Assembly: GCA_965544045.1 (NCBI GenBank)
Contig: CBEULT010000007.1
Span: forward strand, 1-64,000
Length of the DNA stretch: 64,000 nt
Direction: 5' to 3'
DNA from: an uncultured Thermoactinomyces sp.
GTDB taxonomy: Bacteria; Bacillota; Bacilli; Thermoactinomycetales; Thermoactinomycetaceae
In this document: positions 20,754-39,345 of the stretch, in pieces
Numbering within the stretch: the first letter of the stretch is position 1
Layout of the letters: every line of letters starts with the position of its first letter
Position numbers and translations under genes: made by a program
The notes under the pieces: generated by a model
Told to the model about the DNA's origin: nothing
The model's input: the letters and a program-made list of their open reading frames with translations, nothing else
Database searches by the model: none

Positions 20754-22541
20754 TCAACCTTTGCTTTCTTTACTGCTTTGGCCCCATCTGAACTGTTGTT
20801 GCACCAGTTTTTGATAAAGCGGATGCCCGCTTAACAACTCCTGATGGGTTCCCTGGCCGGTAATGCGCCCTTCCTCCAGCACAATAATCTTGTCAGCCTC
20901 CACAACTGTTGACAAACGATGGGCAATCACCAGAGTTGTCCGGTCTTTCATCAGATGGTTTAACGCTTCCTGAACCACATGTTCCGAAGTCGAGTCCAGG
21001 CTGGAAGTCGCCTCATCCAGCATCAGAATCCTGGGATCGCGCAAAAGCGCCCGGGCAATGGCAATTCTCTGCCGCTGACCTCCCGACAGCTTTGTTCCCC
21101 GTTCGCCTACATGAGTCTCATATCCTTGCGGCAATTCCTGGATAAATGCATGGGCGTTGGCCAATATGGCCGCATGCACCATTTCCCCATCCGTTACCGT
21201 TTTCTCCAGACCGTAGCAGATATTTTCCCGAATCGTACCGTTGACCAGAGGACTTTCCTGGGAAACATAGCCAAACTGCTGCCGCCATTTCCGCAGCGGG
21301 AAACGTGAGATCGGCGTTTCCCCCAGCCGGATTTCTCCCGCCGTTGGCTGATAAAAGCGCTCCAATAAGGAAAATAACGTGGTTTTCCCGCTCCCGCTCG
21401 GCCCGACAATGGCGGTCACTTTTCCCGGTTCCGCGGAAAAACTCACATCTTCCAATACCAAGTCCTGAGGTACATAACTGAATGAAACGCCATCCACCAC
21501 GATTGGCTGCTCGCTGTCAATCTCCGTTTCTGATCCAGGATCGTCCTCTTCCTCATCCCGCAAAATCTGCTGCAGCCGCTCTGTTGCTCCCAATGCTTTT
21601 TGCAGGCTGGTAAAAAAATGGGTCATTTGCACAAGCGGCATCACTGCCTGGAAAAGATAAAGAAGAAAAGCAACCAGTTCTCCTGCGGTAAGCGCACCAG
21701 TTGCCACACGATATCCCCCGTAACCGATCACTACCACCAGCATCAGCATCATGACAAAAGAAACGAGCGGCTGCAGCCAGGCATAGACCTTCGCTTCTTT
21801 CAACCCATACTGAAACATGCGATCAATCGTCTGCTCCCCATGTTTTTTCTCGACCGGTTCTGCCGTATAGGATTTGACCAGCCGAATTTCACTGATTGCC
21901 TGCGTCAACAGGATAGTGAAATTTGCGATCTGTTTTTGGAGGTTCTTGGAAATACGGTACATCCGTATTCCCATAGGCCGTATAATCGCGAACATCAGCG
22001 GAATCGCAACAAACATGAGCAGTGTCATCGACCAGTCCAGATAAAAAAGAAGAAAAAGGGCACCGATAACATTGATGATTCCGGTAAATAACTGTACCAT
22101 CTGTTGGGAAACGAGTGTCTTTAAAATAACCGTATCGTTGTTAATGCGGCTTACCAATTCGCCCGTATCATTTTCATCAAAATAAGAAACGGGCAGCCGG
22201 AGCGCTTTGCCCCACAATCTTTTCCGTAAACTGGATACTACTTTTTCGCCCAAAAACCCCAAAAGATAAGTTGAAATTCCGCCGGTGACCGCCTGCAGGA
22301 CAAATGCGCCAACCAAAAGAATAAAGACGGAAGCACGCAGATCGCCCACAGTCAGCATATCAACGGTCCCCTTGGTAAACCAGGGAACCAATAACCCGGC
22401 TACTGCTTCCATTATGCTGAAAACCAACACCAACACAATGATTTTTTTCGGCAAATTCGCTCCCTGGATAAATTTCAATAGAGGCCGAATATTCATCCTG
22501 GACAACGAAGGAGCTTGTTGCTCATTCTTCGCTTGTTCCAT
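20754..22541 (-). CDS. ABC transporter, fused permease/ATP-binding (multidrug-exporter type)
   Basis: 6 TM + Walker A GPSGSGKTT, LSGGQRQR, Walker B MLDEATS. Confidence 0.8.
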   Translation of the reverse strand: MEQAKNEQQAPSLSRMNIRPLLKFIQGANLPKKIIVLVLVFSIMEAVAGLLVPWFTKGTVDMLTVGDLRASVFILLVGAFVLQAVTGGISTYLLGFLGEKVVSSLRKRLWGKALRLPVSYFDENDTGELVSRINNDTVILKTLVSQQMVQLFTGIINVIGALFLLFYLDWSMTLLMFVAIPLMFAIIRPMGIRMYRISKNLQKQIANFTILLTQAISEIRLVKSYTAEPVEKKHGEQTIDRMFQYGLKEAKVYAWLQPLVSFVMMLMLVVVIGYGGYRVATGALTAGELVAFLLYLFQAVMPLVQMTHFFTSLQKALGATERLQQILRDEEEDDPGSETEIDSEQPIVVDGVSFSYVPQDLVLEDVSFSAEPGKVTAIVGPSGSGKTTLFSLLERFYQPTAGEIRLGETPISRFPLRKWRQQFGYVSQESPLVNGTIRENICYGLEKTVTDGEMVHAAILANAHAFIQELPQGYETHVGERGTKLSGGQRQRIAIARALLRDPRILMLDEATSSLDSTSEHVVQEALNHLMKDRTTLVIAHRLSTVVEADKIIVLEEGRITGQGTHQELLSGHPLYQKLVQQQFRWGQSSKESKG

Positions 22542-22610
22542 CCGCATCCCCCGTTATATTTATAATGGCAATAATCCACTTTCTCATTATAAATGATTTG
22601 TTTGTTTATG

Positions 22611-22650
22611 GAAAAAAGGCGCCTTCTCCCATAAGGAAAAAGGCGCCTCG
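22611..22650 (-). terminator. Intrinsic terminator downstream of dps-1 (GGCGCCTT…AAGGCGCC hairpin + T-run); a near-copy follows dps-2 at ~26005-26045
   Basis: Read directly. Confidence 0.5.
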
Positions 22651-22664
22651 CTCACTCACCTATA

Positions 22665-23105
22665 TTACCTTGCAGAATATGCTTTTAGCATCCACAGGTG
22701 TTTTTCCAGTTTCGCAAGAAGGCCAATTAGCAGATCTGCTGTAGCAGCATCGCCAATACTTTCTGCTGCCTTGATCGCTTCTCCTGTTTCCCCGGAAATG
22801 GTCTGGAAATCCGCAGCCACCTGCTGTACCATTTGTTCTGTCGTTTCATTTCCAACCGCTTCCTGAATCGTTGCCTGATTCAAATATTCCCGCATCGTGC
22901 TGCCCGGGATTCCCCCGATCGCCAGCAATCGTTCCGCGATCTGGTCAAGGATTAACGCGGCTTCATTGTAAAATTCCTCAAACTTTTGATGGAGTTCAAA
23001 AAACTGATCTCCTTTTACAAACCAATGGTAGTGATGCAGCTTAAAATAGAGGACACTCCAGTTGGCCAATTGTCGATTTAATACCGTTTGCAGATCTTGT
23101 GGCAT
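22665..23105 (-). CDS. dps: Dps-family DNA-protection/ferritin-like protein (MrgA-like), paralogue 1
   Basis: 146 aa. Ferroxidase-centre residues (…HHYHWFVKGDQFFELHQKFEEFY…). Confidence 0.85.
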   Translation of the reverse strand: MPQDLQTVLNRQLANWSVLYFKLHHYHWFVKGDQFFELHQKFEEFYNEAALILDQIAERLLAIGGIPGSTMREYLNQATIQEAVGNETTEQMVQQVAADFQTISGETGEAIKAAESIGDAATADLLIGLLAKLEKHLWMLKAYSAR

Positions 23106-23425
23106 AAATTCCCCTCTTTTCTGTGCAGTTTCTTGCCCCTATTTTTTCCAAAACCATTTTACTCATACATAGTTTTTTATAGAAAAGGCACAAACTTTCA
23201 GCTTCCAATAATTATTCAAACCTGAAATGGGTCTTTTAATAAAAGCAACAGTTGGATTTTGAATATCTTGTGATTATGTATCAATATTTGTATGCTATTT
23301 ACTATTTTTATATAAAGAGCAGAAAATATATTTTCAGTAACTTGAATCCACTTTGTTTGCAAAAAAGTTTTTACGCTTTCTATGGTTAAATAATATTATA
23401 TAAGCTAAAAACACATCATTCCTTT

Positions 23426-25267
23426 TTGTTAAAAAATGAATTTTCAAGGGAATCCGTCTCTGCCCAGGTGTTTGCCACCATCGCCTATTGCCACGTGGTC
23501 AACGCTGTACCGGAACTGGAAGAGCATCTGCCAAAACATGACACTCTGATGCCAAACGCCTGTTACGTATTTCTGGAAGACTGGCTTCGGGATGAGAAAG
23601 GGAGACAGGCGATCAAACCGCTGCTGCGGGAACTGGAGACTTCCTGGGGAATATACGGTCTCCTGAAAGAACTGCCACCGGAAACTGCCGCGGGTTGTAC
23701 CACCTTCCCCATTGCCGATGCGGTGATCCTGGAATACCTGAATGAGATGCTCCTTCATCATACCGTCACCGGACTTCCCCTCCGGGAGATAATCAAAAGG
23801 CAGGCAGGCTCCCCGGGCACAAGGCAGGCGAGAGCAGACAGCCTATGAATTCTGTTCTTACGCATTGCCTCTTGTTACATATAAAGAAGCGGAGCGAAAA
23901 GAGCACTACAAAACGAGCGGTACAGACTGGGTGAAAACCTGTACTGAACACGAATTTCAGATCGATCAGATGTACCGGAAACTGACGTGGATCTGTAACG
24001 AAGCGGGCATGCCGGAAGAATGGTCCGAACTGCGCAACCGGATGACAGAGTGGTACGAAAAGGTATTTTTAACCGGACTTTCCCGGTACATTGACGAACT
24101 GATCAGCAGCGAACGGGCCAGCCACCGGCCAATCCGAGCTGTGAAGCAGCAAACCGGTTTCTTCCGGAATTTTATCCGTCCCATTCTGGACAAAAGCCCG
24201 GAGCGGATCTTTGTCATCATTTCTGATGCCCTGCGGTATGAAGCCGGTATAGAACTGGCGGAAAAACTGCGCAGCCGTCTAAACGCCGACATTTCCACCA
24301 GTCCCATGCAAGCGGCCATTCCCACTTACACCCAGTTGGGCATGGCCTGCCTGCTGCCGGGAACAGTTACCCGAATTGATGACCAGGGAACCGTTTATGT
24401 TGATGGCATCCCCGCACGGGGGGGCTGGCCAACCGGGAGAAAATCCTGCAGAAAGCTGTTCCGGATGCCAAAGCATTCCGTCTGGACGAATTTCTGCAAC
24501 TTGGCAAGGAAGGACTGAAACAGTTTCGGGGGAAACGGGTGGTTTACCTGTACCACAACCAAATTGATGCCAAGGGGGACAACCACACAACAGAAAGCTA
24601 TACCTTTGCCGATGCCCGCCACACTCTGCTCGAACTGGAGCGGGCGGTGGCCAAACTGGCGGGAACATTTGAAGCCAAGCGAATCCTGATTACGGCTGAC
24701 CATAGTTTCCTGTACCAGTATTCGCCAGTACAGGCGGACCAATTGGCAGAACGGGCAAGCTGAACCATCATTGACCAGAACCGCCGCTTTGCCATCGGAC
24801 AGAACCTGAATGTTCCGCCAGGGGCGCAAAAAATCCCCCTTTCCCGGCTAGGCCTGGATGAGTTGGAAGCGGTTGTAGCCAAGGGATTAAACCGGTTCAA
24901 AACAAACGGCGGAATGAAATTTGTGCATGACGGCGCGATGCCCCAGGAAGTGATCGTACCAGTCATCCACTACCGGAAGATTCACGGGCAACGGCGGAAA
25001 CGGCAGGAACAGCGGGTTCCGCGCGCCATCTCCGGACTGCCTTCTACCGGGGATGACCGTATTTCCAATGAAGTGACCATGGTATTTGACCACAGCCAGG
25101 AAGCAACCGAACGCCACACGGAAATTACCTTCGCCCTGATTGAAAACCGCTACCCGCTCGGGGAACCATGTGAACTGCGCCTGGAATACATAACCGGTTC
25201 GAAAACCGTTTTATATGCGGAAGAAGCTTTTGAACCCAGACCGTACGACTATGATTTTAATAAATAA
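23426..25267 (+). pseudogene. Alkaline-phosphatase-superfamily (PglZ-like) gene, GC-rich, disrupted by at least 2 frameshifts and an in-frame TGA
   Basis: Fragments in frames 2/0/2/2. Motifs …IFVIISDALRYEAG…, …YLYHNQIDAKGD…, …ILITADHSF… (metal-binding D/H motifs of the alkaline-phosphatase fold). G7-8 run at 24417-24424 sits at a frame switch. In-frame TGA at 24761-24763. Local GC is clearly above that of the flanking sequence. Confidence 0.45.
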
Positions 25268-26058
25268 CCATCCCGGAAAGGAATATGAACAAAAGCATAA
25301 AAGGTATTCGCCAGCTTTACAAAGCAGAAAACGGAGCCTTCAGGACGACTCCTGAGGGCTTGCCTGGCATAACCGGAAGCCCAACGCACTGAAGGAGACA
25401 TGTATGTAACGGCGCAACAAATAATATTTTACTGGCTTAATTAGAATTTGGGATATCAGCAACTGGTAAGGAGGTGGTTTTCATCTCGTTTAACCATTTG
25501 ATCGCCAGCCACCAGTTGGAGGGCTATAATTATCCCGGATACTCTCCATTGGGAAGCAAGGAAGAAACGGGCACTGACAGACTATGATTTGTCATAGGCC
25601 CATATCCAGATGGGCTAAAGTGAATACCAAAAATCCTGAAAAGCTATTTCGATCCAGATTAACGATCTATTATATTATGGTTGGCATTCTCAATTTGATC
25701 GGCCAAACCTTGGTTCGATACAATTTGCAGGAAGGTCCAGCAATTCAGGAGGGTTTTTACCGTTTTAAGGATGTGGGTAAATTTCTTTGCCTTTTTATTA
25801 ATCATGCCTCTTGTGATCCTTGCTGTCCGGGGAGCCTATCATCTTTTTAGAAGGAATAAAAACAATTCTCCAATATTGGGTATCCTCTTTATTGTGATTG
25901 GGGTTATTCCCGTTACAGCGATTGCTGTTTTTATGCTGTATTGGCTATATATCCTGGTATTTTACGGGTTTGCCCCTTAAAGCTTTTTATTGGCCTGCTT
26001 CGGATCTCACGAAAAAAGGCGCCTTCCTCCCGGGGAAAAAGACGCCTGATTTCTGACT

Positions 26059-26499
26059 TTATTTCGCTGAATATGCTGTCAACATCCAAATATGTTTTTC
26101 CAGTTTTGAAACAAGGCCGGTCAACAGATCTGCCGCAGCAGCATCTCCCGCATTGTCAGCTTCCTTAATGGCTACTTTTGTTTCCTCTGAAATGGTTTTA
26201 AAGTCCTGGATCACTTGTTGTACCATTTCTGCTGCCTTTTCATTTCCTGACGCCTCTTTAATCGTTGCCTTATCCAGAAACTCTTTCATGGTGCTAATTG
26301 GTGCTCCGCCTTTAGCCAGCAAAAATTCTGCAATCTGATCAAGGGTTAAAGCGGCTTCATTGTAAAATTCCTCAAACTTTTGATGGAGCTCGAAAAACTG
26401 ATCTCCTTTTACAAACCAATGATAGTGATGCAGCTTAAAATAGAGGACACTCCAGTTCGCCAATTGTCGATTTAATACCGTTTGCAGGTCTTGTTGCAT
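26059..26499 (-). CDS. dps: Dps-family protein, paralogue 2 (5' ~190 bp near-identical to dps-1)
   Basis: The first ~51 residues are identical to paralogue 1 and the rest ~60% identical. Same AAGAGGGGA RBS. Confidence 0.85.
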   Translation of the reverse strand: MQQDLQTVLNRQLANWSVLYFKLHHYHWFVKGDQFFELHQKFEEFYNEAALTLDQIAEFLLAKGGAPISTMKEFLDKATIKEASGNEKAAEMVQQVIQDFKTISEETKVAIKEADNAGDAAAADLLTGLVSKLEKHIWMLTAYSAK

Positions 26500-26863
26500 G
26501 AACTCCCCTCTTTTCAAAGCAGTTTCTTGCCTCTGTATCCCGAAACCATAACTCTTAAACAGGATTTATTGCAAAGAGGCATAAAATAGTTTCTAATATT
26601 TATTTTAACACTAAAAACAAGTCATTTTATACAATAAATCTAAATATCCTTGAATTTTTATTGAAATTAGTAATATTTGTTAATATTTTCAACATAAATA
26701 TTAAAAAAACAAACAATTGATATGAAATGACACAGGATTAAAGACTCCCTAACTGAGTATTTTCCAACTTCGTGCATTCCATGAGCTCTTGTTACATCTG
26801 CTTCAACATCTGGACATTTCCCAGCAAAAAAGTTATAATGCTTTTTAGCTGTCCATTGATTAT

Positions 26864-26940
<77 letters not shown>

Positions 26941-27270
26941 AACCTTTAAATACGCGGAGTTTGACGATTTTTAACCGGTTTTTGACCGCGTGAAACCGTG
27001 AAATTTTCGTGTATAACCGCTTGATAACCGCTACCTGAACCGTTGGCATACGGTAAGGACAAGCGGTTATTTTTTGGCTAAAAAGTCATTTTCCCGGGAA
27101 TGTAAAAACGTTCAATGTCCAAATGAGAACAGCGGTAAGAAACGATATTAATATAATCAGGCAATCAATGATACTTACACATCCGTGAAAAGTTGAACAA
27201 ATAACGAAAAAATGGCGACATACCTTTTATTATTGAGGAATACAGGGAACAATAATAGGGGGTGTACAAA

Positions 27271-27483
27271 ATGGAAAAGTATATTTTTGACAAGGAAGAA
27301 ATAAAGCACTTTGTTTGTGCCAATTGTTCAAGGATAAAAGAGACTGACGAATATGTTGATTTATACGAGTGTGAAGGCTGTGGCACTTTTGTATCTGAAG
27401 CGGCATTAGAAGAACTTAAAAAGTACAATGTTTGTGAAGACGAGAACATTCATTTTGTAGAATCGGAAATGCTCAAGAATTAA
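27271..27483 (+). CDS. Small zinc-ribbon protein (CxxC-x17-CxxC), hypothetical
   Basis: 70 aa with AGGGGGTG RBS. A-U-rich hairpin + T-run after the stop. Confidence 0.45.
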   Translation: MEKYIFDKEEIKHFVCANCSRIKETDEYVDLYECEGCGTFVSEAALEELKKYNVCEDENIHFVESEMLKN

Positions 27484-35923: not shown

Positions 35924-36337
35924 TCAGCACAAAAAACACCTGGAAAATTCCAGTCCTGCCTTCCTCAATTCTTTCGTAAAGAATTTTTTATGAGTTTCCC
36001 TCCAATATTGATAAGTTCTGTCCCCTTCTCCTTCTGCAAAAGCAAACTCCTCTGTAACCTCATTCATCGGCATTATTTTGACATTTTCTGTTTTAATAAT
36101 CGCCACTGGTTCGTCTCTGCTGTTTAAAATAATGCTGTAATCTCCAACAGAGGGTAATGGCTCATTTTCAATTTCATAAAAAACCAATCCGGAACAAGTA
36201 GCTGTTTTAATACCGTCTATTACCAACTGGGCCAAATAGTCCGGATTATCCCCGAATTTCCATGAACTTACTGATTTTGGCTTCTCTTGATTTTGGCGCT
36301 TCCAAAATTCATCCCAATATATTTGCGATGCTTTATT
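35924..36337 (-). CDS. ASCH-domain protein
   Basis: …DGIKTATCS… ASCH core. GTG start with AAGGAGGAG RBS. Confidence 0.55.
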   Translation of the reverse strand, partial: NKASQIYWDEFWKRQNQEKPKSVSSWKFGDNPDYLAQLVIDGIKTATCSGLVFYEIENEPLPSVGDYSIILNSRDEPVAIIKTENVKIMPMNEVTEEFAFAEGEGDRTYQYWRETHKKFFTKELRKAGLEFSRCFLC

Positions 36338-36688
36338 CACTGTTCTCCTCCTTAAATAAAAAATCAGAGTATTCAACTCCATTCCAGAAATAAATCATAA
36401 CGCTCATTTTAAATTTTATAAATGGGACTTTTCCTTGAAATTTTGTTTATTATCCATAATTATATAATTATAATGATTATAAATATTATGGTATATCGGT
36501 TATTCAAAAAAAACCCATTTCTTTGTACCAATGATGCAAAACAAAACCTTCTTCAGAAAGCTTCCAAAGCGAAGGTTTTGCAAAAAGTGTGACATCCATC
36601 ACATTTAAGGGTCGGGGGATGGGTTACGATGATAAAGATCCATTCAGAGTGGGGAAAATGGAGATTATTGGAGATTGGAGATGTTACG

Positions 36689-37426
36689 ATGAAACCGATC
36701 CTTCCACGGGAACATGGCGGATGGGCGATGGTGTCCATTCCCTTTTTCCTCGGCATGGCCGTGGGAGGTCCTGCTTGGCTGCATCTTCCGCTGTTTATCG
36801 GCTGGATGTTGTTCTATCTGGCAGCCTATCCCTTCCGGCTGGCATTAATGAATCGGAACAACCGCCAAAGCTGTCTGCGTTGGTCACTGGTCTACTTTGG
36901 GCTGGGGATAGTCTTGATGCTTCCGCCGCTCTTTGCCCGTCCATCGCTCCTGTGGGCCGGGCCTGTACTGGCTGGACTGCTGGCTGTCAACAGCTGGTAT
37001 GCTTACCGGCGCGACGAGCGCTCCTTTGTCAACGATATTGTCGCCATTCTCACCTTTTCGATTGGCGGTTTGGCCTCCTATTTCGTCGGGGCCGGGAGAT
37101 TGGATGATGTTGCCTTGTGGGTCGCGGCCTCATGCATTCTGTACTTCACGGGAAGTGTCTTTTTCGTTAAATCCGTGTTCCGGGAACGCAAAAATGCCAC
37201 CTGGCAGAAGGCCTCCAAAGGGTACCACACCCTGCTTGTGGTTACGCTTGCCCTCATGGAGCCACTCCTGGTATTACCCTACGCTTTTTCGACAGTGAGA
37301 ACCTTTGTGTGGGGAGGCAAACCGGTGCCTCCGATGAAGGTGGGAATCATCGAAATTATTGGTTCAGTGCTTTTTCTCGTTCTGTCAATCCTCATTTTTT
37401 CCGTTACGGATCTGCCCATGATCTAA
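36689..37426 (+). CDS. YwiC-like integral membrane protein (GC-rich gene)
   Basis: About 8 TM. GC content is markedly higher than that of the surrounding sequence. Confidence 0.55.
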   Translation: MKPILPREHGGWAMVSIPFFLGMAVGGPAWLHLPLFIGWMLFYLAAYPFRLALMNRNNRQSCLRWSLVYFGLGIVLMLPPLFARPSLLWAGPVLAGLLAVNSWYAYRRDERSFVNDIVAILTFSIGGLASYFVGAGRLDDVALWVAASCILYFTGSVFFVKSVFRERKNATWQKASKGYHTLLVVTLALMEPLLVLPYAFSTVRTFVWGGKPVPPMKVGIIEIIGSVLFLVLSILIFSVTDLPMI

Positions 37427-37595: not shown

Positions 37596-37687
<92 letters not shown>

Positions 37688-37788: not shown

Positions 37789-39066
37789 TTATTTGATCGT
37801 TTCGATTCCCCCCATATAGGGTTGCAATGCTTTGGGAATCCGAACAGTTCCATCGGCTTGCTGGTGGTTTTCCAGAATGGCTGCGACCGTGCGCCCGACG
37901 GCAAGGCCCGATCCATTGAGCGTATGCACAAATTCCGGTTTGCTGTTTGCATTTGGACGGAAGCGAATTTGCGCACGGCGTGCCTGGAAATCTTCGCAAT
38001 TGCTGCAGGAGGAAATCTCCCGGTAAGTCTGGTTGCTGGGTATCCATACTTCCAGATCATACGTTTTGGCTGCGGAAAAGCCAAGGTCGCCTGTGCAAAG
38101 ATTAACTACCTGGTAAGGTAGTTCCAGCAACTGCAATACAGTCTCGGCATTGACCACCATTTTCTCCAATTCTTCGTATGAAGTGTCCGGATGAACGATT
38201 TTCAACATTTCTACCTTGTTAAACTGATGCAGACGAATGAGCCCGCGTGTATCCCTTCCGGCCGATCCGGCTTCCGAGCGGAAACAGCTGCTGAAAGCTG
38301 TGTAGTATTTGGGCAGATCGTCATTGGACAATATTTCATCTGCATGATAATTGGTCACAGGCACCTCCGAGGTAGGAATCAGGAAATAATCAGGATTATC
38401 TGCCAATTTGAAGGCATCTTCCTCAAATTTTGGCAATTGGCCTGTCCCTGTCATTGATTGCCGATTGACAATAAAAGGAGGAATCATTTCCATATATCCG
38501 TGTTCATTTGTATGCAGATCGAGCATAAAGCTGATTAAGGCCCGTTCAAGGCGGGCTCCCAGGCCTTTATAAAAAACGAAGCGCGATCCCGTCACTTTTG
38601 CCGCTCGGTCGAAATCGAGCAGATCCAGTTCCTCGGCAAGCTCCCAATGGGGTTTGATGGCAAAAGAAGGCCGCGGAATTTCTCCCCATTTTCTGACCAC
38701 CTTGTTTTCCTCTTCGGAAGATCCAATGGGTACGCTTTCATGAGGGATATTGGGAAAAGTAAGCAAAATTTGTTTCATCTCTTCATCACACTGGCGCAAT
38801 TCTTCATCCAGCCGTTTGATTTCCTCCCCCACTCTACGCATTTCCAGAATCTTGTCTTCTGCATCCTGCTTGTTCTTTTTCATTTGCGCGATTTCCTTGG
38901 ATACCACATTGCGCCTGTTTTTCAGCTGTTCGCTCTTCTGAATCAATGTGCGCCGGCGCTGGTCCAGGTCGTCAAAAGTATTGATTCCCTCAAGTTCCCC
39001 ATGACGTGCCGACAATCTCTGCCTGACTTCATCCATTTGCGTTCGTAGTTTTTTGATATCTAACAA
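37789..39066 (-). CDS. serS: Seryl-tRNA synthetase
   Basis: 425 aa, class-II aaRS motifs. TTG start with GGAGGTG RBS. The longer six-frame ORF upstream is the untranslated leader. Confidence 0.9.
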
Positions 39067-39074
39067 TTGAGCAC

Positions 39075-39345
39075 ACCTCCTGAAAAAAATAAAAACCTTC
39101 CCCCCAAAAAAGGGACGGAAGGTTCCGCGTTGCCACCCTTGTTGACCCCTGGTTTTCGTCCACAGGTCCACTCTTACGAGATAACGGCTCGTTTGCCGAA
39201 AGGACACTTCAAGCGGCTTTTCCGCCTTCGTGTTTCGCTCCAAGGTGGATTCACCGGCAATTTTGGGCGATTCACACCAGCCATCGCCTCTCTGCAACAA
39301 AATTGCCAGTTACTTGCCTCTTCTTCGCGTTTGCCATTTCAAAGT
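39075..39345 (-). promoter_or_regulatory. T-box riboswitch leader of serS (T-box sequence AGGGTGGCAACGCG, terminator/antiterminator, promoter TTACAA-17-TATAAT at ~39345-39385)
   Basis: Minus-strand read: …caacaagggtggcaacgcggaaccttccgtcccttttttggggggaaggttttta…. Confidence 0.7.

What the first reader, a model, noticed from the sequence alone, without database searches (positions are those of the whole stretch)
22665..26517. Duplicated dps genes with near-identical 5' halves bracket a 3-kb GC-rich insert (mosaic paralogues, probable gene conversion or recombination scar)
The two Dps genes share ~95% nucleotide identity over the first ~190 bp plus the RBS and leader, and have near-copies of the same terminator. 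Their 3' halves are only ~60% identical at the protein level. The ~230-bp direct repeats flank the GC-rich pseudogene region and a small membrane-protein ORF. This geometry allows deletion or amplification by homologous recombination. It suggests the intervening DNA was acquired or retained between the duplicated stress genes.
Basis: seen in the sequence. Interest (0 to 1): 0.55.

Follow-up and report, generated by a model that had tools for sequence, protein, structure and literature searches.

The report
Partly homogenised tandem dps genes, BREX relic
Two neighbouring copies of the iron-storage/DNA-protection gene dps in a Thermoactinomyces genome keep their first ~200 bases alike by copying from each other (gene conversion), and the DNA wedged between them is mainly the decayed remains of a phage-defence gene (BREX pglZ); this is a clean example of known processes, not a new kind of system.

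Summary
dpsA (22665-23105, -) and dpsB (26059-26499, -) are 94.6% identical over CDS nt 1-167 and 81% over the 36-nt leader with the RBS. They are only 70.5% identical over nt 168-438. The breakpoint is at nt ~167 (permutation p<0.0005). Synonymous divergence is 0.33 in the 5' tract and 1.23 in the 3' part.

Relatives settle the interpretation. Two other Thermoactinomyces assemblies carry both copies with the same breakpoint. In the 3' part the genes group by paralogue type (100% bootstrap). In the 5' tract they group by genome (73-80%) and the type grouping has 0% support. This indicates recurrent gene conversion confined to the leader and the first 56 codons.

More distant relatives have a single dps at this locus. 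One relative (L001) has the two copies adjacent with no insert. Another (L018) has a shorter insert holding part of the same pseudogene.

The insert (~23320-26010) holds a 5'-truncated BREX-1 pglZ with two frameshifts and one stop. It also holds ~500 nt without a recognisable gene and an orphan small membrane ORF. No convincing PerR box is present at either dps promoter.

Verdict: a tandem duplication, a later foreign insertion that is decaying, and segmental concerted evolution. It is ordinary in kind and well documented here.

The parts
22616..22649 (-). Intrinsic terminator of dpsA (15-pair hairpin plus a T run). It is a near-copy of the dpsB terminator.
   Evidence: terminator scan; alignment with the dpsB terminator and with orthologues.
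22665..23105 (-). dpsA, 146 aa. It is the Dps paralogue on the ABC-exporter side ('A type').
   Evidence: Ferritin domain, E 1.8e-29; B. anthracis Dlp-1, 1JI5, E 3.6e-45. Orthologues are in L001 (7332-7772) and L018 (2283-2723), 86-89% aa identity (coordinates). The A-type clade has 100% bootstrap in the 3' part.
22939..23141 (-). Conversion tract, copy A. It covers leader -36..-1 with the RBS AAGAGGGG, plus codons 1-56.
   Evidence: 187/203 identical to 26333-26535, breakpoint at CDS nt 167; groups by genome and has low dS.
23142..23320 (-). dpsA promoter region. It is a diverged copy of the dpsB / T. mirandus promoter region. It contains the palindrome 23196-23227 (core AATAATTATT), which overlaps a -10-like AATAAT.
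   Evidence: alignment of seven upstream regions; inverted repeat I6; TTAAAA-17-AATAAT at 23239-23211; PerR consensus, 4 mismatches.
23426..25267 (+). BREX type 1 pglZ pseudogene. It lacks about the first 220 codons. It has frameshifts at ~23803-23817 and at the G7 run 24421-24427, and an in-frame TGA at 24761-24763. The natural stop codon is kept.
   Evidence: Pfam PglZ; TIGR02687 positions 361-737 of 844 in three pieces, each far below the 270-bit cut-off; PADLOC PglZ positions 223-855 of 855; frames relative to the Kroppenstedtia homologue.
25268..25770 (.). Part of the insert without a recognisable gene (GC ~44%).
   Evidence: It has no similarity to L018 or L019 beyond pglZ.
25771..25980 (+). 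Small two-helix membrane ORF (69 aa; a public gene call uses the 58-aa version starting at residue 12). It is an orphan and its coding status is uncertain.
   Evidence: weak sub-threshold hit to the GPGG-motif small membrane protein family (19 bits against a 33-bit cut-off); an exhaustive search of 1.84 billion representatives found only itself and one protein at 49% identity.
26017..26047 (-). Intrinsic terminator of dpsB (14-pair hairpin plus a T run).
26059..26499 (-). dpsB, 146 aa. It is the Dps paralogue on the tRNA side ('B type'). Its 3' part groups with the single dps of T. mirandus.
26333..26535 (-). Conversion tract, copy B.
26536..26720 (-). dpsB promoter region. It has an extended -10-like TGTTAAAAT and an adjacent AT-rich element at 26594-26608 (3 mismatches to a PerR box). 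It is conserved in the B-type copies and in T. mirandus.
26864..26940 (+). tRNA-Arg(CCT). It is the conserved right-hand neighbour of the locus and a synteny anchor.
   Evidence: The same tRNA lies next to dps in L001 and L002.
20754..22547 (-). ABC exporter (fused membrane and ATPase domains). It is the conserved left-hand neighbour and a synteny anchor.
   Evidence: synteny.

Best explanation
An ancestral single dps unit (promoter, gene and terminator, about 0.7 kb) lay between tRNA-Arg(CCT) and an ABC exporter. It was duplicated in tandem in a subclade of Thermoactinomyces. The two copies diverged to about 70% nucleotide identity and both stayed under purifying selection.

A segment of about 200 bp has since been repeatedly homogenised between the copies by non-reciprocal homologous recombination (gene conversion). 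This segment is the last 36 nt of the leader, including the RBS, plus codons 1-56. It encodes helix A and most of helix B, with four of the five ferroxidase-centre ligands.

Conversion stops where the sequences are too diverged to sustain heteroduplex. Because of this, the same boundary persists in three species.

Foreign, GC-richer DNA carrying at least a BREX type 1 pglZ was inserted between the copies. It is now decaying by truncation, frameshifts, a nonsense codon and lineage-specific deletions.

Shown here: the duplication, the breakpoint, the phylogenetic conflict, the identity of the insert and its patchy distribution.

Inferred: the order of events, the heteroduplex-barrier explanation of the boundary, and the idea that the two copies are differently regulated through their diverged promoters.
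For: - Breakpoint: 94.6% against 70.5% identity, maximum chi-square at nt 167, none of 2000 permutations as extreme.
- Synonymous divergence between the window paralogues: dS 0.33 in codons 1-56 against 1.23 in codons 57-146. Orthologue dS in the same 5' tract is higher (0.56-0.65 to L018, about 1.0 or saturated to L001).
- The same drop in identity at nt ~150-170 occurs in the two other two-copy genomes, L018 and L001.
- Trees for the 3' part: A-type clade 100% bootstrap; B types plus T. mirandus 100%.
- Trees for the 5' tract: A-type clade 0%; window A+B 73%; L001 A+B 80%.
- Both copies are functional-looking. dN/dS between orthologues in the 3' part is about 0.12-0.19 (A) and 0.13-0.25 (B). 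Both have an RBS, promoter-like sites and terminators.
- The single-copy state is found in T. mirandus and in more distant syntenic contigs L020-L025.
- The upstream regions of both copies align with the single T. mirandus promoter out to about -200, and both terminators align. The duplicated unit was therefore a whole gene unit.
- Insert: pglZ fragments cover profile positions 223-855. GC is 53% against 43% for the window. The insert is absent in L001, where the copies are about 150 nt apart. L018 has a 1257-nt insert sharing only window 24060-25007 at 83%.
- The window has no ORF of 1000 aa or more, so no intact pglX or brxC lies nearby.
Against: - Only three two-copy genomes and one close single-copy genome were available. 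The 5' tract is short (168 nt), so bootstrap support for the within-genome pairs is moderate (73-80%). In L018 the two copies do not pair with each other (21%).
- Purifying selection is clearly stronger on the 5' half (dN 0.015-0.09) and contributes to the contrast.
- The tract is not freshly converted: it has 9 differences in 167 nt and dS 0.33.
- The order 'duplication, then insertion' is not proven. L001 lacks dps1's own promoter region (its upstream homology stops at about -95, directly after the dps2 terminator). This looks like a secondary deletion that could have removed an insert.
- The pglZ block is less diverged between the window and L018 (16%, even across codon positions) than third positions of the flanking ABC gene (34%). 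Simple vertical inheritance of the insert does not explain this.
Confidence: 0.75

Rival explanations
1. No gene conversion. The 5' half is simply under much stronger purifying selection (ferroxidase centre and dimer interface; translation-initiation region), so it diverged less after a single old duplication.
For: - dN in codons 1-56 is very low in all comparisons (0.015-0.09), against 0.18-0.23 between paralogues in the 3' part.
- The 5' tract is also the best-conserved part between species (82-90%).
- The boundary lies at the same place in three species.
Against: - Selection on the protein does not lower synonymous divergence fourfold (dS 0.33 against 1.23).
- It cannot make paralogues within a genome more alike than orthologues. 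Third-position identity is 86% for window A/B against at most 80% to any L018 copy. It is 82% for L001 A/B against at most 73% to any other copy.
- It does not erase the A/B orthology signal, which has 0% bootstrap in the tract and 100% outside it.
Confidence: 0.08
2. The duplication is a by-product of island integration. A circular element carrying a dps homologue and a BREX system integrated by a single (Campbell-type) crossover in the conserved 5' part of the chromosomal dps. This left two chimeric dps copies flanking the element, most of which was later deleted.
For: - The geometry fits: direct repeats flank foreign, GC-richer DNA.
- The high-identity tract is where such a crossover would occur.
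- L001's adjacent copies lack the dps1 promoter, which is compatible with a later deletion of an insert.
- The insert shows signs of lateral exchange.
Against: - A crossover in the 5' tract would place the chromosomal 3' half in the ABC-side copy (A). Instead, the tRNA-side copy (B) resembles the single T. mirandus gene in its 3' part (77-79% against 71-74%).
- The A type has no closer relative outside this clade. The next hits are B-type copies, then proteins of 66% identity or less.
- The A promoter, leader and terminator are all homologous to the resident T. mirandus unit.
- A single crossover does not explain within-genome pairing in two separate lineages.
Confidence: 0.12
3. Assembly artefact. 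The near-identical 5' parts result from mis-assembly or consensus blending of two repeats.
For: Repeats of about 200 bp can confuse short-read assemblers. The window's own contig could not be re-examined at read level.
Against: - The tract still carries 16 differences between the copies, so it is not collapsed.
- The same mosaic pattern is seen in three independent assemblies from different sources: the window, an NCBI MAG, and a Logan assembly.
- Public protein collections hold both window proteins from one 152-kb contig.
Confidence: 0.02

Closest known systems
Partial gene conversion (concerted evolution) between bacterial paralogues, e.g. tufA/tufB, the class-I release factors RF1/RF2 (PMC4530459) and the PE_PGRS pairs of mycobacteria (PMC1762029)
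   Same: Paralogues within a genome are more alike than orthologues in a delimited tract. Phylogenetic conflict exists between the tract and the rest of the gene. Breakpoints are sharp and dS is reduced inside the tract.
   Different: Here the pair is dps. The tract covers only the leader plus the first 56 codons. The same boundary is kept in three species, and the copies are separated by 2.9 kb of foreign DNA in this genome. I found no paper that reports conversion between dps paralogues; this rests on one full-text search whose listed hits held nothing relevant.
Multiple Dps paralogues in Bacillales: B. anthracis Dlp-1/Dlp-2 (PDB 1JI5, 1JIG) and B. subtilis Dps/MrgA (PDB 2CHP)
   Same: These are the closest solved structures (E 3.6e-45, 3.7e-44 and 3.8e-41). 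The proteins are the same size and have the same ferritin-like domain. Two copies occur per genome, with different promoters. That B. subtilis mrgA is PerR-regulated and dps SigB-dependent is from my own knowledge.
   Different: In those species the paralogues are unlinked and, to my knowledge, uniformly diverged. Here they are tandem and mosaic. Regulation was not established: the PerR-box match is weak.
BREX type 1 phage-defence system, gene pglZ (TIGR02687 / PF08665)
   Same: The insert's reading frames match PglZ type A collinearly over profile positions ~223-855.
   Different: It is a relic. It is 5'-truncated, frameshifted twice and carries a premature stop. No brxA, brxB, brxC, pglX or brxL lies next to it, and the window has no ORF of 1000 aa or more. 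No close intact homologue was found. The best hits are a fragmented Kroppenstedtia copy (71% over a 78-aa stretch), an otherwise 44% hit, and 35% in the metagenome scan.
Streptomyces dps gene-family evolution (PMC3613396)
   Same: The number of dps genes varies among close relatives through duplication and lateral transfer (from the abstract listed).
   Different: That work concerns unlinked copies and tail extensions. Its hit line shows zero occurrences of 'gene conversion'. I did not read the paper beyond the abstract.

Membership tests
Dps (DNA-binding protein from starved cells; ferritin-like superfamily) | Ferritin-like four-helix-bundle domain of about 140 aa scoring above Pfam's PF00210 threshold | tested here: met
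   102.9 and 101.4 bits against a cut-off of 24.5, covering residues 8-143 of both proteins.
Dps (DNA-binding protein from starved cells; ferritin-like superfamily) | Close sequence relatives with solved dodecameric Dps structures | tested here: met
   Dlp-1 (1JI5) E 3.6e-45, Dlp-2 (1JIG) 3.7e-44, MrgA (2CHP) 3.8e-41, Listeria Dps (1QGH) 2e-32.
Dps (DNA-binding protein from starved cells; ferritin-like superfamily) | Inter-subunit ferroxidase-centre ligands (His, His, Asp/Glu, Asp, Glu; His31/His43/Asp47/Asp58/Glu62 in Listeria numbering, from my own knowledge) | tested here: met
   Read from the sequences and from the alignment. H27, H39, E43, D54 and E58 are present in both copies. All but E58 lie inside the converted tract.
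Dps (DNA-binding protein from starved cells; ferritin-like superfamily) | Named NCBIfam equivalogs (PRK09448 Dps; haloarchaeal and cyanobacterial DpsA) | tested here: not met
   70.7 bits against a 114 cut-off, and 80.8 against 170. The proteins are Dps-family members but not members of these specific equivalogs.
Dps (DNA-binding protein from starved cells; ferritin-like superfamily) | Dodecamer assembly, iron oxidation and DNA protection | not testable with these tools
   Requires biochemistry.
Gene conversion / concerted evolution of paralogues | Within the tract, paralogues of one genome are more similar to each other than to their orthologues | tested here: met
   Window A/B 94% (third positions 86%), against at most 90% (80%) to L018 copies. 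L001 A/B 87% (82%), against at most 87% (73%) to other copies. This is not seen for the L018 pair (89%, equal to cross-species values).
Gene conversion / concerted evolution of paralogues | Phylogenetic conflict between the tract and the flanking part of the same gene | tested here: met
   the A-type clade has 100% bootstrap in nt 169-438 and 0% in nt 1-168.
Gene conversion / concerted evolution of paralogues | A sharp, statistically supported breakpoint and lowered synonymous divergence in the tract | tested here: met
   maximum chi-square, permutation p<0.0005; dS 0.33 against 1.23.
BREX type 1 system | Intact PglZ type A scoring above the TIGR02687 cut-off (270 bits) | tested here: not met
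   the fragments score 120, 66 and 56 bits; the 5' ~220 codons are missing, and there are two frameshifts and one in-frame stop.
BREX type 1 system | Neighbouring brxA, brxB, brxC, pglX and brxL | tested here: not met
   the neighbours are dps, an ABC exporter, TetR genes and a tRNA; no ORF of 1000 aa or more anywhere in the window. The remaining ORFs of the window were not individually scanned.
PerR (Fur-family) regulon promoter | A 7-1-7 box close to TTATAATNATTATAA overlapping the promoter | tested here: inconclusive
   the dpsA site GAATAATTATTGGAA has 4 mismatches; the dpsB site at 26594-26608 has 3 mismatches. The window holds 22 sites with 3 or fewer mismatches against 6.6 expected, and one perfect box at 36468-36482. 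The element sits at the -10 region in all copies, but the match is weak.

The most novel reading that the evidence does not exclude
The conversion boundary may be kept at the same codon (~56) in three species because of selection rather than a passive homology barrier. Keeping helices A and B (the two-fold interface with the ferroxidase centre) identical would let the two paralogues co-assemble into mixed dodecamers. The diverged C-terminal halves (pores and outer surface) and the diverged promoters would specialise. The pair would then be a naturally 'half-homogenised' hetero-oligomer system. A second unexplained point is that the pglZ relic is about half as diverged between two species as third codon positions of the flanking ABC gene (16% against 34%). 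This hints at lateral exchange of the inter-dps segment, or at constraint on it.
Probability: 0.1. Interest if true: 0.5.

Novelty: new member of a known kind. Interest (0 to 1): 0.3.

Why it matters
This locus gives a compact natural example of how tandem bacterial paralogues evolve as mosaics. The catalytic N-terminal part and the translation-initiation region are kept in step by gene conversion, while the promoters and the C-terminal halves drift apart.

It also shows defence-system DNA (BREX) landing in a stress-gene locus and decaying there.

For annotation, it is a warning on three points. Trees built from whole dps genes in this clade will mix two histories. The ORFs at 23426-25267 are pseudogene pieces and not genes. 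The 152-aa TTG-start version of dpsB is an over-extension.

It does not open a new question in Dps or BREX biology.

Tried and rejected
- Exact-sequence look-ups of both window Dps proteins found no contig, although identical proteins are listed in the homologue search. The window's own genome could therefore not be retrieved.
- The metagenome scan with a 604-aa conceptual PglZ found nothing above 35% identity. No intact close relative and no intact island at this locus could be found. The protein search with the 217-aa fragment returned mostly partial proteins.
- A SigB-type promoter was considered in the conserved leader (GTTTTG-N10-GGGCAA) and rejected by eye, because the spacer is too short. 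This rests on my own knowledge of the consensus GTTTAA-N12-15-GGGTAT.
- The PerR-box idea was tested against the consensus. The match is weak.
- T. mirandus as a deletion chimera (B 5' part fused to A 3' part) was rejected, because its 3' part is B-like.
- An island integrating into dps and supplying a replacement gene end (as e14 does at icd, or SXT at prfC; my own knowledge) was rejected, because both copies are complete genes with their own promoters and terminators.
- The 69-aa membrane ORF was searched exhaustively. It is essentially an orphan.
- One protein comparison failed on a stop codon. It was replaced by a profile scan, which showed that the L018 relic continues weakly to PglZ position ~789.


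Full report
**What is in the sequence**

The region holds two intact 146-codon Dps genes on the minus strand. dpsA is at 22665-23105. dpsB is at 26059-26499. The ORF list also gives a 152-aa version of dpsB from a TTG at 26517, but every orthologue is 146 aa and a strong RBS precedes the ATG. Both proteins match the Pfam Ferritin-like domain far above threshold. Their nearest solved relatives are the Bacillus anthracis Dps proteins Dlp-1 and Dlp-2 and B. subtilis MrgA.

The flanking genes are an ABC exporter (20754-22547, -) on one side and tRNA-Arg(CCT) (26864-26940, +) on the other. A small Zn-ribbon-like ORF and a TetR gene lie beyond the tRNA.

**Checking the observation**

In an ungapped register the two genes compare as follows:

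| Segment | Identity |
|---|---|
| CDS nt 1-167 | 158/167 (94.6%) |
| Leader -36..-1, with RBS | 29/36 (81%) |
| CDS nt 168-438 | 191/271 (70.5%) |
| Upstream of -36 | about 50-60%, with gaps |

The best breakpoint is at nt 167 (chi-square 36.5, Fisher p 1.5e-10). None of 2000 random placements of the 89 differences gave as strong a contrast.

At the protein level 54 of the first 56 residues are identical and 59 of the last 90. The overall figure is 77%.

Each gene is followed by a 14-15-pair hairpin terminator with conserved stems.

The tract is about 200 bp rather than 230 bp, and its longest perfect run is 38 nt.

**Which organism, and what relatives show**

A scan of one genome per species found the closest relatives in Thermoactinomyces. 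Further loci came from exact-protein look-ups. Four states of the locus exist:

- **Single copy, distant relatives.** Syntenic contigs L020-L025 have one dps at this locus.
- **Single copy, T. mirandus (L002).** One dps lies between tRNA-Arg and the ABC exporter.
- **Adjacent double, Thermoactinomyces MAG (L001).** Two dps copies lie head to tail about 150 nt apart, with no insert.
- **Double with short insert, Logan assembly (L018).** Two copies are separated by a 1257-nt insert that shares only window 24060-25007, at 83% identity.

The upstream regions of both window copies align with the single T. mirandus promoter region out to about -200, and both terminators align with it. The duplicated unit was therefore a whole promoter-gene-terminator cassette of about 0.7 kb.

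**Gene conversion**

In nt 169-438 the seven genes sort by paralogue type. The ABC-side copies ('A') form a clade with 100% bootstrap. The tRNA-side copies ('B') group with T. mirandus, also at 100%.

In nt 1-168 the A clade has 0% support. Instead, the two window copies pair (73%) and the two L001 copies pair (80%).

Third-position identity tells the same story:
- In the tract, window A/B is 86%, against at most 80% to any L018 copy.
- In the tract, L001 A/B is 82%, against at most 73% to any other copy.
- In the 3' part, paralogues are only 53-59% identical at third positions.

By Nei-Gojobori, dS between the window copies is 0.33 in codons 1-56 and 1.23 in codons 57-146. Orthologue dS in the tract is 0.56-0.65 (to L018) and about 1.0 or more (to L001).

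All three two-copy genomes show the identity drop at the same place, nt ~150-170.

Stronger purifying selection on the N-terminal half is real (dN 0.015-0.09). It cannot produce these synonymous and phylogenetic patterns. The best reading is recurrent, non-reciprocal recombination confined to a ~200-bp island of homology, occurring independently in at least two lineages.

My explanation of the conserved boundary is an inference. Once the 3' part and the upstream leader had diverged to about 70% or less, heteroduplex could no longer extend there. Only the still-similar segment keeps being homogenised.

The tract encodes helix A and most of helix B, with ferroxidase ligands H27, H39, E43 and D54. 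The assignment of these residues uses Listeria Dps numbering from my own knowledge and the alignment.

Both copies look functional. dN/dS between orthologues in the 3' parts is about 0.1-0.25.

**The insert**

Between the dpsB terminator and the dpsA promoter homology (roughly 23320-26010) lie three components.

- **A pglZ pseudogene (23426-25267, +).**
  - Four ORF pieces match BREX-1 PglZ collinearly over profile positions ~223-855 of 855.
  - The first ~220 codons are missing.
  - Comparison with a homologue in Kroppenstedtia sanguinis places frameshifts at 23803-23817 and at the G7 run 24421-24427.
  - There is an in-frame TGA at 24761.
  - GC is 53%, against 43% for the window.
- **About 500 nt with no recognisable gene (25268-25770).**
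- **A 69-aa two-helix ORF (25771-25980).** An exhaustive profile-free search of 1.84 billion representative proteins found only itself and one 49% relative.

No other BREX gene is adjacent, and the window has no ORF of 1000 aa or more that could be an intact pglX or brxC. The insert is a relic of acquired defence DNA.

The window and L018 relics carry different frameshifts. Within the shared block L018 has three 1-nt indels of its own (plus a 2-nt and a 3-nt difference), and the window has its own lesions.

**Order of events and open points**

The order 'duplication first, insertion later' is the simplest reading of L001, but it is not proven.

L001's ABC-side copy lacks its own promoter region; its homology begins at about -95, right after the other copy's terminator. 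This looks like a deletion that might have removed an insert.

A Campbell-type integration of a dps-bearing element would also give this geometry. It predicts that the ABC-side copy carries the resident 3' half. In fact the tRNA-side copy is the one that resembles T. mirandus. The A type has no closer relative outside the clade. I give that model about 0.12.

One observation remains unexplained. The pglZ block differs by only 16% between the window and L018, spread evenly over codon positions (13.8/14.0/19.9%). The adjacent functional ABC gene differs by 34% at third positions. The similarity ends abruptly at 25007, although the L018 relic continues weakly as PglZ to profile position ~789. This suggests that part of the inter-dps segment was exchanged laterally after the species split. 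I could not test this further, because no close intact homologue exists in the collections searched.

**Regulation**

It overlaps a -10-like AATAAT of a weak sigma-A-type match.

Against the B. subtilis PerR consensus TTATAATNATTATAA, this site has 4 mismatches. The equivalent element in the dpsB promoter (26594-26608) has 3. Sites with 3 or fewer mismatches are common in this AT-rich window: 22 are found, against 6.6 expected.

A perfect box occurs elsewhere, at 36468-36482, upstream of a YwiC-like gene.

An AT-rich element at the -10 region is conserved in all copies. Its regulator is not identified. Differential regulation of the two copies through their diverged promoters is an inference.

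**Comparison with what is known, and verdict**

Partial gene conversion between bacterial paralogues is well known. Examples are tuf (my own knowledge), RF1/RF2 (PMC4530459) and PE_PGRS (PMC1762029).

Multiple Dps paralogues per genome are well known in Bacillales and Streptomyces (PMC3613396). Decayed defence genes are commonplace.

One full-text search turned up no report of conversion between dps paralogues among its listed hits, so this is a new instance of a known process.

It is a tidy, well-supported but ordinary case. Interest 0.3; novelty: new member of a known kind.

Noticed in passing
window 36468-36482: A perfect PerR-type 7-1-7 box, TTATAATGATTATAA, lies inside a longer AT-rich repeat-like stretch. 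It sits in the intergenic region between an ASCH-domain gene (35924-36382, -) and a YwiC-like membrane protein gene (36629-37426, +). It is the only zero-mismatch site in the window.
   Followed up: partly
window 24060-25007 vs L018 1090-2029: The shared pglZ pseudogene block is only 16% diverged, spread evenly over codon positions. Third positions of the adjacent ABC exporter gene are 34% diverged. Similarity stops abruptly at both ends of the block. This suggests lateral exchange of part of the insert after the species split, or some unexplained constraint.
   Followed up: partly
window 24421-24427: The second frameshift of the pglZ relic coincides with a G7 homopolymer run. L018 has two fewer bases at this spot.
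   Followed up: no
L019 8184-11172 (Kroppenstedtia sanguinis JBHTNU010000001.1): This is a collinear pglZ covering the full profile length, but it is called in five pieces. It lies between a MazE-like antitoxin gene and a ParE-like toxin gene, with no other BREX genes nearby. A second member of the Thermoactinomycetaceae therefore carries an orphan, broken copy of the same rare pglZ lineage.
   Followed up: partly
window 27262-27483 (+): A 73-aa ORF with two CxxC pairs (Zn-ribbon-like) has no Pfam or NCBIfam match. It is conserved next to tRNA-Arg in T. mirandus (L002 9006-9335). It appears to be absent from L001, where only ~200 nt separate the tRNA from the TetR gene.
   Followed up: no
L001 7181-7331: In the MAG with adjacent dps copies, the ABC-side copy has no promoter region of its own. 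Its upstream homology starts at about -95, directly after the other copy's terminator. It may depend on read-through or on a promoter within the conserved leader.
   Followed up: no
window 23142-23200 and the equivalent leaders in L018, L001 and L002: A ~95-nt leader between the -10-like element and the RBS is strongly conserved in the A-type copies and in the single T. mirandus gene (…GTTTGTGCC…ATGTATGAG…ATGGTTTTGGAAAAAATAGGGGCAAGAAACTGCACAGAAAAGAGGG). It has diverged in the B-type copies. Its function was not examined.
   Followed up: no
window 39108-39334 (-): A T-box leader (115 bits) lies upstream of the ORF at 37789-39300, with tRNA-Ser(TGA) at 37598-37687 just downstream. This is ordinary and is noted only for completeness.
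   Followed up: no
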